Shown here: piece after piece, positions 22,805 through 45,870 of the stretch | How the letters are laid out: each line of letters opens with the position of its first letter | Position numbering within the stretch: position 1 is the stretch's first letter | NCBI RefSeq assembly: GCF_006345805.1 | Contig: NC_043001.1 | Location: forward strand, 70,184,001-70,248,000 | DNA from: Octopus sinensis | Lineage: Eukaryota | DNA: 64,000 bases | Reading direction: 5' to 3' | Notes under the pieces: model-generated | What the model was told of the DNA's origin: nothing | The model's input: the letters and a program-made list of their open reading frames with translations, nothing else | Database searches by the model: none | Made by a program: the position numbers and the translations under genes

Positions 22805-24566
22805 CCCGAACTATACGATCATCATATTGATGGCTGTATCGGTGCGACCTCGCTCTCCCTGGAAAAACTAGTCTCCGTTCTCTCTTTTGTCCAATCTTTC
22901 CATTCTGCCCTTGAATTCTTCTGCACCATTTCCAACACTTCTGTCACCTTTCTCGACATTTCGGTCAACATACACAACTCCGCTCTCACTACCTATATCC
23001 ACTACAAACAAAGCGACTCACATTCATACCTTCACTTCTCCTCCTCAAACCCTACCCACACCAAGCTTTCCATCCCCTACTCCCAATTCCTCCGTCTATG
23101 CAGGCTCTGCAATGACAACCATGACTTTGTATATCAGTCTCAACTCATGGCTCACAATTTCATCCTTTGTGGATATCTCCTCATCACTACCCGTACCGCC
23201 ATTCCCAGAGCAAGTTCCGTGGACCATGAAACTGCTCTTTCTTCTCACACTCACCCGGCCGTTGCCCGTCTCCCATTTTCCCTCACCTACTACCCCTCCA
23301 CCTTGCCCCTCCAACGCACCATTCCGAGCCTTCTGGCGACTCAATTCCGAAACCTCAACTTCGTACATTTTCCACAACCTACCACTTCTCTCCTTCAAAC
23401 GAACCCACAACCTATAAGACATCATGGCACACAATTTTTTCCCTAACCCCACCTCCCAGCCTGGCTCGTTCCTCTGCTCACACCCACGCTGTAGCACTCC
23501 TCCTCACAAGTTCCCATCGTCCCTATCATATCACTGACACCTTTACCTGCACTTCTAGCAAAGTCATTCAGTGTATCGCCTGTTCTTTGTATTCTTCTCT
23601 GAACGTCAGTCAAGCAGGACGCCCCTTGGCTGACTGGTTCGCGTAGCACCTCCGAGACATTAGACTCGGCAATGACGCCCCAGTCTTGCGCCATTTCCGC
23701 TCTACCTGTCATTAATTGCAACACCTGTCTGTGTTCGGATTGTCTTTGAACAGGTGCCATCCGGATCCCCCCTTCGCCGTGAACAAGAAATAATCTTCTC
23801 TCTTCGCTCCTTTGTGTCACATGGACTCCACTGCCCTCCCCTTCATCTGACTCCCCTCCTCTCCTTCCTTCATCTCACACCTTTTTCTCTTCGCTCTTAC
23901 CCACTATCTCCCTTCATCGATACCCACTCCATCCATACCCCACCCCTACATCCTACACCCACATCCCCCATTCCTACGCCCACATACTCACCCCAAACCT
24001 ACATCCCACCTCACATTCTACACCCAAACTTCACATCACCAAATGCCACATTCACATCCCCACACCCCAACAAAGCCACATCAAACCACACACCAACACA
24101 CCACCACACCACATCACACCACTCCGCACACACTAGGACTAACCGTTTCCCAACAACCAGTGCATAAACCACATACCCACACATTACAGACGCACGCACA
24201 CACATACATGCACATTCACACGTCAAAGTCACCAGCCCCTCTCCTTCGGCACACACTCATATATACATATATACACTTATATATACATATATAACCCTTC
24301 GGGTTGGGCTCACCAGTACATCAATATCACCCCTTCTTCCTAGCTCTTCTGTCTAACTACTTTTGTCCAACCAGTTGCCATGGTTGACCGTTAGATCCAA
24401 ACTTTTCATTGTTTATTCTCTCTGTTTATTTCGTCGTGTTCCTTTCTGTTGAAGACCGTAGGATTGAAACGTAAAATATTTTGTCCCCTTCTCAAACATT
24501 AAACTAATACACCTGCTTCTTGTTTACCTATATTCGTCGTTTGTTTTTCTTTTGGAAATTTCAACT
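22805..24566 (+). mobile_element. Penelope-like element, decayed (RT C-terminus + GIY-YIG + 3' repeat)
   Basis: Frameshifted PELYDHHIDGCIGATSL...IHYKQSDSHSYLHFSSSNPTHTKLSIPYSQFLRLCRLCNDNHDF. Homologous along its length to the reverse complement of 43235-44995. Confidence 0.9.
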
Positions 24567-24580
24567 ATATATATATATAT

Positions 24581-25232
24581 ATATTTCTAAGTCTCTCTAA
24601 AGGAGACTAAGTCAGCATTACAGGATATCAATAGTTATCGCCAAGTTAACATTACAGTCCAGGACTATAGGACGAATGCTACCGCTGATTAGCTCCAAGA
24701 GGCCATCGCTTCTAGCAATCTATGTGACATCCAGACCAGCAAGTTGAAGCGGCTGACCCCTCCTGTTCGAAGGTTATAATGGAAACAGGTTCGTGCGTCA
24801 CATAACTAGCTAGAGGCGATGACCTCTTGGAGCTAATCAAGGGCAGCATTCGTCCTATTTTCATGGACTGCCTTGTTAGCTTGGCGATAACTATTAATAT
24901 CCAGTACTGCTGCCATACTCTCCTTTAGAAAGACTTAGAAATATTAATATTTCTATTTTTGAAAACCAGTAGATGTATTCCACTGAATTTAGGTAAATAA
25001 TCCTTCGAACAGACGGTCAGTAGTGACGCCTGCTGAGTTCGGCTGCTCTACATTGATAAGGGGTAAATAGCCCGAAACTAGTCTGTAGATGCTGACCTCC
25101 CCTGTTCGAAAGTTATAATGGACACAGGTTCGTGTGTCACATAGCTAGTTAGAGGCGATGGCTTCTTGGAGCTAACCAACGGCAACATTCGTCCTATTTT
25201 CCTGGACTGCCATGTTAGCTTGGTGGTAACTA
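24581..25232 (+). mobile_element. Non-coding Penelope-type or retrozyme-like unit: inverted arm + partial tandem repeat + hammerhead
   Basis: 24581-24728 is inverted relative to 24797-24944 (about 20 mismatches in 148 bp). 24752-24894 is directly repeated at 25091-25232 (period 339). A hammerhead lies at 25047-25089. Flanked by (TA)n and (CA)n. Confidence 0.8.
25047..25089 (+). ncRNA. Minimal type I hammerhead ribozyme (U3-A8 variant)
   Basis: TCTACA-TTGATAA-GGGGTAAATAGCCC-GAAA-CTAG-TC-TGTAGA: 6-bp stem I, core, stem II GGG/CCC, palindromic minimal stem III, GUC cleavage triplet ending at 25083. Confidence 0.85.
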
Positions 25233-25245
25233 TACACACACACAG

Positions 25246-25335
25246 CGATGTGGCGTCATTCGAAGGCTAAAACAATGCAAACGCATTGTGACCAGCGATG
25301 TGTAGCAATATCTGGTCGGTCACGTGATCACGTGT
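25246..25335 (+). mobile_element. SINE family B, 3' fragment
   Basis: GTGGCGTCATTCGAAGGCTAAAACAATGC...GGTCACGTGATCACGTG matches the tail of 53174-53482. Confidence 0.85.
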
Positions 25336-25917
25336 TATATGTACGCATATAGCTATATGTATGTATTTATATATATATATGTACATATATATATGTTCAT
25401 ATATATATATATGTATGTATGTATTACGAACGTACATATACATACACACACACACAACACAGACATACATCGCGCAAGCACAAACATATATGCTACCACA
25501 CACACACAGTTACGCGAACACATACACAGTTACTCCACACGCTCACACATATACGCAGATTCTGCCACGCGCATACGCACGCGCTACCACACACACACAC
25601 ACGCGCCACTTTATACACTCTACCACATAAACACACACATATGTGCCGACCATTTTCTAACTCTCCAATCCCAGATAGCACAATCTCTTCATTCCTTCTA
25701 CTTCAGAAATGTCACCTCACGTGTACTGTTGGCGATATTTTCCTCCTGTCTTCTTTCTTATTGGACTCTCCTATGTTTCCTCTTTCTGAAGCACGCTACG
25801 CGCGAAACGTAGAACAACTGCTCTCCTATGACTCTGAGCGTCTTATTAACATATTACTTGTACCTCGTCATCATGTTTGTTTCTTCTCTTTTTCTGTCTT
25901 GTAATTGTATGTATGTG

Positions 25918-26107: not shown

Positions 26108-26215
26108 TGGCCGGCTCGTTTAACCAGCGAGGTGGCGTCATTCGAAGACTAAAACAATGCGAACGCATTGCGACCAGCGATGTGTAGCAATATCTGGTCA
26201 GTCACGTGATCACGT
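26108..26215 (+). mobile_element. SINE family B, 3' fragment
   Basis: GCTCGTTTAACCAGCGAGGTGGCGTCATTCGAAG...GTCACGTGATCACG. Confidence 0.85.
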
Positions 26216-26498
26216 TTTATATATACGCATATAGGTATAGAGGTGGCCAGATAACCGAAGAGATGATGATGTGGATTTCCACCTCAGCATCCGAAACTCA
26301 GAGTTTTATCTTGGCTATTGAATAATTGTCACATATTATTTTACAGATAAATTTCCTCTATTTACATAATATTGAGGTCTCTTTCTTTCTTTTGTTATCT
26401 TACCCTTTTTATCAGTATATATATATATATATAATTCTATATATATATGTGTGTGTTGAATACATGGATTCATTCACAATGAAACGCACGCCTGTGCG

Positions 26499-43234: not shown

Positions 43235-44995
43235 TAGTTGAAATTTACAGAAAAACAAAAGACGAAGACAGGTGTATGAACGAAAGAAGGCAGGTGTATA
43301 AACAAAATAACAAGTGTATCAGTTTAACGCTCGGGACGGTGAGAAAGTCTTCTACGTTTCGAGACTGCGATCTTCAACAGAAAGGAACACGATGAAATAG
43401 CCAGACAAAGAAAAGAAACTTTTGGAGTTAGCGGTCAATCATGGCTGCTGGCTGAACAAAGGTAGTTAGATAGGAGAGCTAGGAAGAAGGAGACATAACA
43501 AAGTATTGGTGATCCCAAAAACAAAGGTTCGCGTGCGTATGTATTTGATAGTGCGTACGTGTGGTGAGGCGTTGGTGACTTGGACGTATGGATTATGGTG
43601 TGTGTTCTGGGAAGTGGTCAGTGCTAGTGTGTGCGGTGTGAGGTGGTGATGTGGTGTGGTGGTGTGTGGTATGGTGTGGCGGTGTTGGGGTGTGGAGATC
43701 CGAGGGTGGGGAAGTGATGGTGGGTGTGGGGTGAGGATGAGGGGTAGGAGTGGGGTATGTAGGTGTGGGATGTGTAAGAGTGGGGTGTGGATGTAGTAGG
43801 TATCGATGAAGGGAGTGGGCGGGTAAGAATGAAGAGAGGAAATAGGTGTCAGATGAAGAAAGGAGAGGAGGGAAGTCAGATGAAGAGGGGAGGAGAGATG
43901 AGCTCATGTGACACAAAGGAGCAAAGATAGAAGATTGTTTCCTGTTCACGGCAAAGGCTGGAGTCCAGATGGCACCTGTTCAGAAACAATCTGAACACAG
44001 ACAAGTGTTGTAATGAATGACGGCAGAGCGGAAATGGCGCGAGACCGGGGTGTCATTGCCGAGTCTAATGTCTAAGAAATGCTCCGCGAACTGGTCAGCC
44101 AAGCGGCGTCCCGTTTGACTGATGTACAGAGGACAGAAATAACAGGTGATATGGTAATTGACGTTGCTAGAAGTGCAGGTAAACGAGTCAGTGATATGAT
44201 AGGAATGATGATAGGTGCCTGAGACGATGGTGGTGTTGGAGAGGTAAGGGCAAGTGCTGCAGCGTGGGCGGGAGCAGGGGAACGAGCCAGACTGGGAGGT
44301 GGAGTTGCGGAAGAAACTGTGGTCCAGTATGTTACGTAGTTTGTGGGCTCGTTTGAAGGAGAAGAGGGGCAGATATGCGAAGTAGAGTTGTCGGACTGCA
44401 GTCGCTGGAATGTTCGGAGAATGGTGCGTGCGTTGGAGGGGCAATGTAGAGGGGTGGTAGGTGAGGGGAAATGTGAGACTGGGAACGGCGGTGCGGGTGC
44501 GGGGAGAGAGAGCATAGGTACGGTCCACGGAATGTGCTCTGACAAGAGCGATGTGGATAATGGTGAGGGAATATATCCACGAAGGAGTTGAGACTGAGTT
44601 TCAAAGTCATGTTTGTCACTGCAGAGCGTGTGCCCACGGAGGAATTGGGAGTAGAGGGTTGTGAGCTTGGGTAGGACAGGGGGAGGAGAAGTTGTATTAT
44701 GAGTGTGATTGGGTATGTTTGTAGTGGATAGATGTATTGAGAGTGGAGTTGTGTATGTTGAGCGAAATGACAAGAAAGGTGACAGAAATGTTGTAAATGG
44801 TGCAGGATAATTCTACGGCAGGATGGAAGGATTGGACAAAAGAGAGGAATCAGTCTAATTGTTTGTGGGAGAGCGAGGTTGCACCGATACAGTCATCAAT
44901 ATAATGACCGTATAGCTCGGGGGTGGGGCCACTGAATGTTGAAAATATTTGGGCTTCAATGTAGCCAACGAACAGATTCGCATATTTGGGACTCA
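43235..44995 (-). mobile_element. Penelope-like element (RT C-terminus + GIY-YIG + 3' repeat)
   Basis: SPKYANLFVGYIE...PELYGHYIDDCIG and PCSRPRCSTC...FTCTSSNVNYHITCYFCPLYISQTGRRLADQFAEH. Same family as 22805-24566. Confidence 0.93.
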
Positions 44996-45439: not shown

Positions 45440-45870
45440 TATGGTGGTGTAGTTAAGAAGCTCGATTTGCAAATATATAGTTTCTGGTTCAGTCCCACTA
45501 AGTGACATGTCATGCTAAGCAAGTGACTTCTATAATAGCCCAGGGCCGTCCAAAGCCTTGTAAGTAGGTTTGGTAGACGGAAACCGCGTAGAAAACCTTC
45601 GTATACAGGTGTATCTTTGCGTATATGTCGCGTGTATGTGTGTATGCACGTGTATGTGCGGTCGTCTTTGTGCTTGTGTATGTCATCTCTTCAGCATTAA
45701 TACCGGTGATGGGTTGTTTACGTCCATGTAAAGAGTGTTTCGACAAAACCAATCGATCAAGTTAAACTTTAAGCAACGAAATAATTGGGGTCGATTTGCT
45801 TACTGAAGACCTTCGAGGTTGTGTCCCAGCATGGTTGAAGCCTCATTACTGAAACAAGTAAAACGTAAAA
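45440..45870 (+). mobile_element. SINE family A, diverged
   Basis: TGGTGTAGTTAAGAAGCTCG...GGTTCAGTCCCACT...TTTGGTAGACGGAAAC...CCCAGCATGG...CTGAAACAAGTAAAA. Confidence 0.82.

What the first reader, a model, noticed from the sequence alone, without database searches (positions are those of the whole stretch)
24581..25232. Retrozyme-like unit: 339-bp repeat with a self-cleaving hammerhead fused to a 148-bp fold-back
Seen: no ORF; an inverted arm, then about 1.4 tandem copies of a 339-bp unit; a complete hammerhead motif ends 2 nt before the repeat restarts. Established: Penelope-like elements have partial-tandem and inverted pLTRs carrying minimal hammerheads, and metazoan non-LTR retrozymes are tandem repeats of a few hundred nt with one type I hammerhead per monomer that yield circular RNAs. 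Inference: this is a member of a non-autonomous, ribozyme-processed retroelement family, possibly mobilised by PLE RT. It abuts the 3' end of the Penelope at 22805-24566. I do not know whether the family is already catalogued.
Basis: partly seen in the sequence, partly recalled or inferred. Interest (0 to 1): 0.8.

Follow-up and report, generated by a model that had tools for sequence, protein, structure and literature searches.

The report
Hammerhead retrozyme with Penelope insertion signature
This is a decayed copy of a roughly 360-base, protein-free repeat family that keeps a conserved hammerhead-ribozyme fold and whose insertions end the way Penelope retrotransposon insertions do, so it is likely a self-cutting RNA parasite that borrows a Penelope enzyme to spread.

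Summary
The structure is real. Window 24581-25233 is one copy of a dispersed, ORF-less repeat family (700 exact hammerhead-pattern matches in G000, control 0).

The hammerhead (25047-25089) has full type I helices and a U3-A8 core. The neighbouring Neptune-type element is unrelated in sequence and only shares the (TA)n site.

Across 109 family motifs, all ten helix I/II pairs and the 3-8 core pair covary, and the helix III centre is palindromic in 103, which points to selection for dimer cleavage.

Main result: insertions end at two fixed points 40-60 nt apart, and inverted insertions carry one short and one long end in 39 of 41 classifiable loci. That is the Penelope 'tail' signature, also shown by two autonomous PLE families in this genome. 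It is genomic evidence that a PLE enzyme mobilises these retrozymes.

Not shown: cleavage, circular RNA, transcription, and which PLE is the partner. This copy is probably inactive. Verdict: a new member of the non-LTR retrozymes.

The parts
24581..24729 (-). Inverted, 5'-truncated arm (monomer positions about m74-m223; m1 = first base after the GUC). Its 3' end is the 'long' end class and merges into the (TA)n run.
24731..25083 (+). Near-complete monomer (m9-m361), 88% identical to the natural 361-nt monomer of L004
24900..24957 (+). 'Tail' segment between the two fixed 3' end points of the family (m178 and m235); contains two predicted hairpins; predicted region of the two reverse-transcription start sites
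   Evidence: end clustering; folds; role inferred from PMC11167929
25047..25089 (+). Type I hammerhead: helix I 25047-25052/25084-25089, core UUGAUAA 25053-25059, helix II 25060-25063/25070-25073 with a 6-nt loop, GAAA 25074-25077, palindrome ACUAGU 25077-25082, predicted cleavage after 25083
25084..25233 (+). Partial second unit (m1-m172) with a 22-nt deletion near 25091/25092; ends at the 'short' end class and is followed by (CA)n
24566..24583 (.). (TA)n run shared tail-to-tail by the retrozyme arm and the Neptune-type neighbour; likely target site
   Evidence: sequence; microsatellite within 30 nt at 42 of 73 family ends vs 12.6% of control positions
22805..24565 (+). Neighbour, not part of the element: 5'-truncated, decayed Neptune-type PLE (family N1), with its own degenerate hammerhead-like motif at 24446-24473
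   Evidence: 74.5% nt identity over 1161 nt to an intact RT+GIY-YIG copy, L117; no homology to the monomers

Best explanation
This is a decayed copy of a dispersed, ORF-less family of about 361-nt hammerhead-bearing repeats that is likely inserted in trans by the reverse transcriptase-endonuclease of a Penelope-like element. Inferred cycle: RNA read through two or more units lets two hammerheads pair through their palindromic helix III and cut after GUC. The released monomer is probably ligated into a circle, in which a lone hammerhead cannot cut. A PLE enzyme nicks AT-rich or microsatellite DNA and starts reverse transcription inside the RNA at two fixed points flanking the 57-nt tail. It copies past the cleavage junction for 0.3 to more than 3 units and stops at variable places. 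When both target strands are primed, one at each point, the two cDNAs join head to head and give the inverted insertion with one short and one long end, as seen in the window. Shown: the anatomy, covariation, arrays, end pairing and target bias. Inferred: cleavage, circularisation, transcription and twin priming. Unknown: the partner family and the promoter.
For: (a) Ribozyme under selection: in 109 motifs anchored without using pairing, the ten helix I/II pairs are Watson-Crick in 83-106 of 109, most with double-sided swaps; pair 3-8 is U-A in 85 and C-G in 10; the helix III centre is TA 42, AT 30, GC 19, CG 12, non-palindromic 6; 53 of 109 are fully intact. These count sequences, not independent events. 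(b) Self-contained unit: hammerheads recur at 346-365 nt; units of L063 are 99-100% identical; no upstream ORF in 89 loci. (c) PLE signature: short+long end pairing in 23 of 24 classifiable inverted loci (33 inverted in all, 9 with an unclassifiable end; binomial p about 1e-6 against 50%), and in 7 of 8, 5 of 5 and 4 of 4 in sister families B, C and D. Autonomous PLEs here behave alike: 13 of 14 (family H) and 6 of 6 (family N2). PMC11167929 shows in vitro that the tail is the stretch between two internal RT start sites and calls the signature unique to PLEs. (d) Natural monomers folded as circles give z of -2.9 to -6.3, and in the four structures printed helix I and helix II of the hammerhead are formed. 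(e) 12 of 22 full-unit arms read through the cleavage junction, as a circular or multimeric template predicts.
Against: No autonomous PLE with homologous ends was found: blastn of four monomers against N1, H and N2 loci gave only independent insertions or short chance-level hits, and tail alignments to N2 were no better than shuffles (p 0.21-0.99). The PLE survey is incomplete because only the top 150 hits per search are scored. Read-through of the junction fits an uncleaved linear multimer equally well. In the one PLE tested in vitro, ribozyme mutants did not affect insertion (PMC11167929), and 8 of 9 Xenopus retrozyme dimers did not cleave in vitro (10.64898/2026.07.22.740005). I could not confirm from a paper that a U3-A8 core is active. 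The window copy has a single hammerhead, a helix II mismatch and a deletion.
Confidence: 0.8

Rival explanations
1. It is a non-autonomous mini-PLE mobilised from uncleaved linear read-through RNA. The hammerhead only trims the 5' end of transcripts and no circle is involved.
For: [quoted passage not shown] 10 of 22 full-unit arms begin at m1-m16, 3 of them at m1, which fits some templates with a cleaved 5' end. Arrays seen are short (at most about 3.5 units).
Against: The whole monomer folds as a closed, stable circle, with the sequences on both sides of the cleavage site forming one long helix. Four families of diverged sequence keep a 358-365-nt unit. Circles are shown for comparable animal retrozymes (PMC7229834). 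This rival shares the PLE mobilisation of the best explanation and differs only in the RNA intermediate.
Confidence: 0.3
2. The copies are 5'-truncated terminal-repeat debris of an autonomous Penelope-like element, either the neighbour or an unseen one.
For: The window copy abuts a Neptune-type element; the insertion architecture is that of PLEs; 24 of 57 Xenopus retrozyme families match repeat entries, nearly all PLEs (10.64898/2026.07.22.740005); an autonomous family here (N2) also has a UUGAUAA core with an ACAUGU helix III.
Against: Upstream of m1 lies the previous unit's hammerhead, not an ORF. PLE protein hits fall in 9 of 89 loci, none upstream in the same orientation. No homology to N1, H or N2 ends. 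The neighbour has its own 3' end and its own motif.
Confidence: 0.06
3. It is a satellite amplified at the DNA level, or a SINE mobilised by a LINE.
For: Tandem arrays exist; LINE ORFs occur in the genome (seen in L077); 5' truncation and inversion also occur with LINEs (own knowledge).
Against: Copies are dispersed over many contigs as short insertions with two fixed internal 3' ends paired short+long. No poly(A) or common 3' repeat belongs to the element. DNA-level amplification does not explain the covariation.
Confidence: 0.04

Closest known systems
Animal non-LTR retrozymes (Cervera and de la Pena 2020, PMC7229834; closest by size the 350-390-bp mussel family)
   Same: ORF-less tandem repeats of 150-450 bp, one type I hammerhead per unit, GC mostly under 50% (41-45% in families A and B, 51% in C), self-paired predicted circle with the ribozyme free to fold, PLEs in the same genome.
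   Different: U3-A8 core in most copies; all four palindromic helix III centres among sister families; PLE inverted/tail insertion architecture counted here, which the parts of that paper I read (text parts 2-4 of 6; supplement unreadable) do not describe; RNA not demonstrated here.
Vertebrate non-LTR retrozymes as PLE derivatives (Li, Clavereau and Pollet 2026, 10.64898/2026.07.22.740005)
   Same: Non-autonomous PLE partner hypothesis; mostly short arrays and monomers.
   Different: Their evidence is co-occurrence and pLTR homology; the word 'tail' does not occur in their text. Here there is no pLTR homology, but there is a mechanistic insertion signature.
PLE insertions with partial tandem, inverted 5'-truncated copy and tail (Craig et al. 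2021, PMC8557442; Arkhipova et al. 2013, PMC3846280; Frangieh et al. 2024, PMC11167929)
   Same: Partial tandem, head-to-head inverted arm, extension at one end only, AT-rich or microsatellite targets.
   Different: No RT-EN ORF; the tail is 57 nt in A (about 40-43 in C, about 60 in B and D) against the published 30-40 bp.
Schistosoma Cercyon PLE hammerhead with U3-A8 core (Cervera and de la Pena 2014, PMC4209133)
   Same: Same core covariation.
   Different: There it is a minimal motif in an autonomous PLE; here it sits in a motif with 6-bp helix I and 4-bp helix II in an ORF-less repeat.
Non-autonomous Chlamys PLEs such as MRC1 (passage in PMC8557442)
   Same: ORF-less, head-to-tail multicopy insertions with pLTRs.
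   Different: Those generally resemble their autonomous partner at the 3' end; this family resembles none of the three PLE families examined.

Membership tests
non-LTR retrozyme | tandem repeats of 150-450 bp | tested here: met
   346-365-nt hammerhead spacing in 10 loci; over 3 units in L063
non-LTR retrozyme | one type I hammerhead per unit | tested here: met
   109 motifs with covariation; U3-A8 variant core; no Rfam model match
non-LTR retrozyme | no protein-coding capacity | tested here: met
   six-frame translation of the unit; no upstream ORF in 89 loci
non-LTR retrozyme | no LTR, PBS or PPT | not tested
   no LTR-flanked internal region is seen in the locus maps, but PBS and PPT were not searched for
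non-LTR retrozyme | predicted stable circular fold leaving the ribozyme foldable | tested here: met
   9 natural monomers z -2.9 to -6.3 against 25 shuffles each; window 339-mer z -3.1
non-LTR retrozyme | self-cleavage of transcripts | not testable with these tools
   needs an in vitro assay
non-LTR retrozyme | accumulation of monomer-length linear and circular RNA | tested here: inconclusive
   only contigs of runs guessed to be RNA were available; contigs cannot show ends or circles
non-LTR retrozyme | target-site duplication longer than 4 bp when present | not tested
   ends mostly lie in microsatellites; no TSD search was run
'active' retrozyme locus (Li et al. 2026 criterion) | two or more consecutive units with complete hammerheads | tested here: not met
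   the window copy has one hammerhead; other family loci have two or more motifs at unit spacing
autonomous Penelope-like element | RT plus GIY-YIG ORF between pLTRs | tested here: not met
PLE-mobilised insertion | partial tandem plus inverted 5'-truncated copy | tested here: met
   33 of 54 distinct loci parsed as inverted
PLE-mobilised insertion | tail extension at one end only | tested here: met
   39 of 41 classifiable inverted loci short+long, 2 short+short, 0 long+long
PLE-mobilised insertion | AT-rich or microsatellite target | tested here: met
   42 of 73 ends vs 12.6% control; mean AT of the next 20 nt 82%
non-autonomous derivative of a named PLE family | end homology to an autonomous partner | tested here: not met
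   none to N1, H or N2; other PLE families only sampled

The most novel reading that the evidence does not exclude
These retrozymes are an independent lineage of viroid-like ribozyme circles, not PLE deletion derivatives. They evolve by selection on RNA structure (core pair and dimer palindrome swapped between families, unit length held near 360 nt) and recruit PLE enzymes through a structural mimic of the tail with no sequence homology. The strict short+long end pairing records one enzyme dimer priming both target strands at two fixed registers on one RNA, a general rule of PLE integration visible here in both parasites and hosts.
Probability: 0.35. Interest if true: 0.75.

Novelty: new member of a known kind. 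Interest (0 to 1): 0.52.

Why it matters
Which enzyme spreads animal retrozymes is still argued from co-occurrence and end homology (PMC7229834; 10.64898/2026.07.22.740005). Here the insertions themselves carry the PLE-specific two-start-site signature, in four sister families, beside intact young PLEs that show the same rule. That makes the question directly testable with the published in vitro PLE assay: three candidate enzymes, short RNA templates and predicted start positions. The families also give a natural covariation series for the hammerhead core pair and the dimer palindrome, and they show that CUGANGA-based searches and Rfam miss a ribozyme family with hundreds to thousands of copies. 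The window copy itself is an old, probably inactive member.

Tried and rejected
Rfam scans: no hammerhead match in the window at gathering score or in six loci at E<=5, where the hits were microsatellite-driven. An alternative core reading at 25030 (CUGCUGAG) was rejected: it is not conserved and has no helix I.

Expression: no RNA holder listed. Contigs of four runs only guessed to be RNA cover 25, 22, 19 and 9 of 30 bins of the L063 array; this shows neither transcription, ends nor circles, and is used neither for nor against.

Partner search: N1 (the neighbour's family) showed no second fixed end in 25 loci (17 run on into the element, 7 break at varied points, 1 unresolved; a tail under about 25 nt would be missed). 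Family H has a tail of about 150 nt and no homology; one A-versus-H tail alignment gave p 0.04 among 22 comparisons and is treated as chance. N2 shares the core variant, an ACAUGU palindrome, a 37-nt tail and a CUC..GAG hairpin like those in the retrozyme tails, but alignments were no better than shuffles. It is my leading guess only.

A genome-wide tally of 5' starts was unusable because of unit ambiguity and false anchors; only the 22 hand-checked arms are used (24 rows, 2 false anchors dropped). The bacterial promoter scan is irrelevant here.

Literature: eight searches listed no paper describing this family; 'octopus' and 'cephalopod' were my unverified guess of the host group. Dfam and Repbase could not be queried, so the sequence may be catalogued as an unclassified or Penelope repeat. 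The supplement of PMC7229834 was unreadable, the bioRxiv supplements are closed, and the 2017 paper on dimeric PLE hammerheads is not held; any of these may bear on novelty. Passages of PMC3088659 did not settle whether U3-A8 cores cleave. Look-ups of earlier findings by place and by sequence were empty.

Full report
Observation. The window holds an inverted arm (24729 down to about 24581), a near-complete unit (24731-25083) and a partial second unit (25084-25233); the direct copies are 88.8% identical over 143 nt and the arm is 84% complementary. The unit has no meaningful ORF. Rfam finds nothing at gathering score in the whole window.

The family. A search of G000 with the unit gave 2293 first-look candidates, of which 40 were scored and 30 returned as loci. 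Of 40 tandem junctions in 29 of these loci, 35 carry 22 more bases than the window, so the unit is 361 nt and the window copy has a deletion just after the ribozyme. I number the monomer from the base after the GUC (m1), using the natural L004 monomer. Exact patterns match 322 times (strict), 700 times (looser) and 2050 times (cleavage site plus a conserved downstream box), with 0 in each reversed control; these are lower bounds. Fetched loci show sister families B (365 nt, copies mostly 92-100% identical to L063), C (360 nt) and D (unit not measured directly), and a fragment of a fifth, all ORF-less.

The ribozyme. The motif has a 6-bp helix I, the core UUGAUAA, a 4-bp helix II with a 6-nt loop, GAAA, a palindromic helix III and GUC. 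In 109 motifs from families A-D, anchored on core and downstream box rather than on pairing, each of ten helix pairs is Watson-Crick in 83-106 cases, most with double-sided swaps. The 3-8 pair is U-A in 85 and C-G in 10 (family D has the standard core). The helix III centre is palindromic in 103 and takes all four possible forms, and 53 motifs are fully intact (the window copy is not among the 109, because its deletion breaks the anchor). The counts are of related sequences, but swaps between families are hard to explain without selection. PMC4209133 (parts 1-2 of 4 read) gives 6-bp and 4-bp helices with a short palindromic helix III as the canonical animal type I form that works as a dimer, and reports U3-A8 in a Schistosoma PLE. 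Nine natural monomers folded as circles score z -2.9 to -6.3; in the four printed, a long helix I extension spans the cleavage site. The window copy keeps the core and helix I, but has a G-G mismatch in helix II, lacks the strand that extends helix I and has no second hammerhead, so it is probably inactive.

Not pLTR debris. Hammerheads recur at 346-365 nt in ten loci (two longer spacings of 898 and 1368 nt are separate insertions or duplications), L063 holds over three units that are 99-100% identical, and 12 of 22 full-unit arms continue into the previous unit's ribozyme. Three PLE proteins hit 9 of 89 loci, none upstream in the same orientation. The neighbour at 22805-24565 is a decayed member of a Neptune-type family (N1; clade name from the Cys-rich linker described in PMC8557442 and my own reading of the protein) with intact RT plus GIY-YIG copies elsewhere. 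It has its own end and motif, has no homology to the monomers, and meets the retrozyme tail to tail in a (TA)n run. Similar tail-to-tail contacts are seen in L051 and L072, consistent with shared targets: 42 of 73 family ends have a microsatellite within 30 nt, against 12.6% of control positions.

The insertion signature. 3' ends fall at m178 or near m235. Of 54 distinct loci, 33 were parsed as inverted; 24 have two classifiable ends, and 23 of these have one short and one long end, one has two short ends and none two long (p about 1e-6 against 50%). Families B, C and D give 7 of 8, 5 of 5 and 4 of 4 (three further inverted loci had an unclassifiable end). As internal positive controls, two young autonomous PLE families follow the same rule: H (778-aa ORF, tail about 150 nt; 13 of 14) and N2 (781-aa ORF with RT and GIY-YIG, tail about 37 nt; 6 of 6). 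N1 showed no second end in 25 loci. PMC8557442 and PMC3846280 (passages) describe the one-sided tail and inverted copy as PLE features. PMC11167929 (parts 1-2 of 4 read) shows that a purified PLE protein cuts both strands of AT-rich DNA, is predicted to be a dimer, and starts reverse transcription at two internal RNA sites that bound the tail.

Mechanism. I therefore read the element as an RNA parasite of PLEs (about 0.9). I infer dimer cleavage of read-through RNA (about 0.75), a circular monomer as template (about 0.55, against an uncleaved linear multimer), and priming of the two target strands at the two start sites, which would explain the short+long pairing; self-priming, discussed in PMC3846280, is an alternative for the inverted arm. 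Against: no RNA evidence could be obtained; the hammerhead was dispensable for insertion in the one in vitro system; 8 of 9 Xenopus dimers did not cleave (10.64898/2026.07.22.740005, parts 1-3 of 5 read); and no partner was identified. N2 shares the U3-A8 core and a palindrome with some subfamilies (593 pattern matches), but shows no significant end homology.

Comparison and verdict. It works like, and meets the sequence-testable criteria of, an animal non-LTR retrozyme (PMC7229834, parts 2-4 of 6 read); cleavage and circular RNA are untested. It fails membership of autonomous PLEs and of 'derivative of a named PLE'. Eight literature searches found no description of this family, but repeat databases and several supplements were out of reach. 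Two unchecked earlier notes of this scan report PLE-type ends on other non-coding elements in other genomes, so the signature may be widespread. I class it as a new member of a known kind, with interest 0.52, mostly for the testable evidence on how retrozymes are mobilised.

Noticed in passing
L117-L120; window 24446-24473: The young Neptune-type family N1 has CUGUUGA instead of CUGANGA at its hammerhead-like motif in all four intact copies examined and in the window neighbour; possibly a lost or altered ribozyme in an apparently active PLE.
   Followed up: partly
L162, L164, L166, L177, L184; G000:C8:39642785-39644246: N1 also forms short ORF-less tandem arrays of its own terminal region (about 330-570-nt units with locus-specific junctions): true pLTR-derived mini-elements, unlike the retrozyme family.
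   Followed up: partly
L153:4201-6534, L152, L151: Intact young PLE family H (778 aa, unit 2863 nt, copies 95-100% identical in the endonuclease part), with no Pfam hit at E<=0.05, a long helix II hammerhead-like motif and an unusually long tail of about 150 nt; resembles Hydra/Nematis-type elements by my recollection only.
   Followed up: partly
L217, L222-L225, L228-L257: Autonomous Neptune-type family N2 with a U3-A8 hammerhead core and a 37-nt tail; its 3' region carries repeated CCAAT-like and TGACGTC boxes followed by a TATA-like box.
   Followed up: partly
L102:3200-3550 (minus strand of the PLE remnant): A fifth retrozyme-like family with a 4-nt palindromic helix III loop.
   Followed up: no
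L029:1039-1401: A retrozyme arm truncated at m132 joins directly to an N1 endonuclease fragment on the same strand; nested insertion, deletion or template switch.
   Followed up: no
window 25243-25357 and 26125-26239: A separate 115-nt repeat (93% identical copies) right after the element, also present in several other loci; not identified.
   Followed up: no
window 25786-25811, 43353-43380 (-), 45803-45860: Further hammerhead-like remnants of other repeat families in the window.
   Followed up: no
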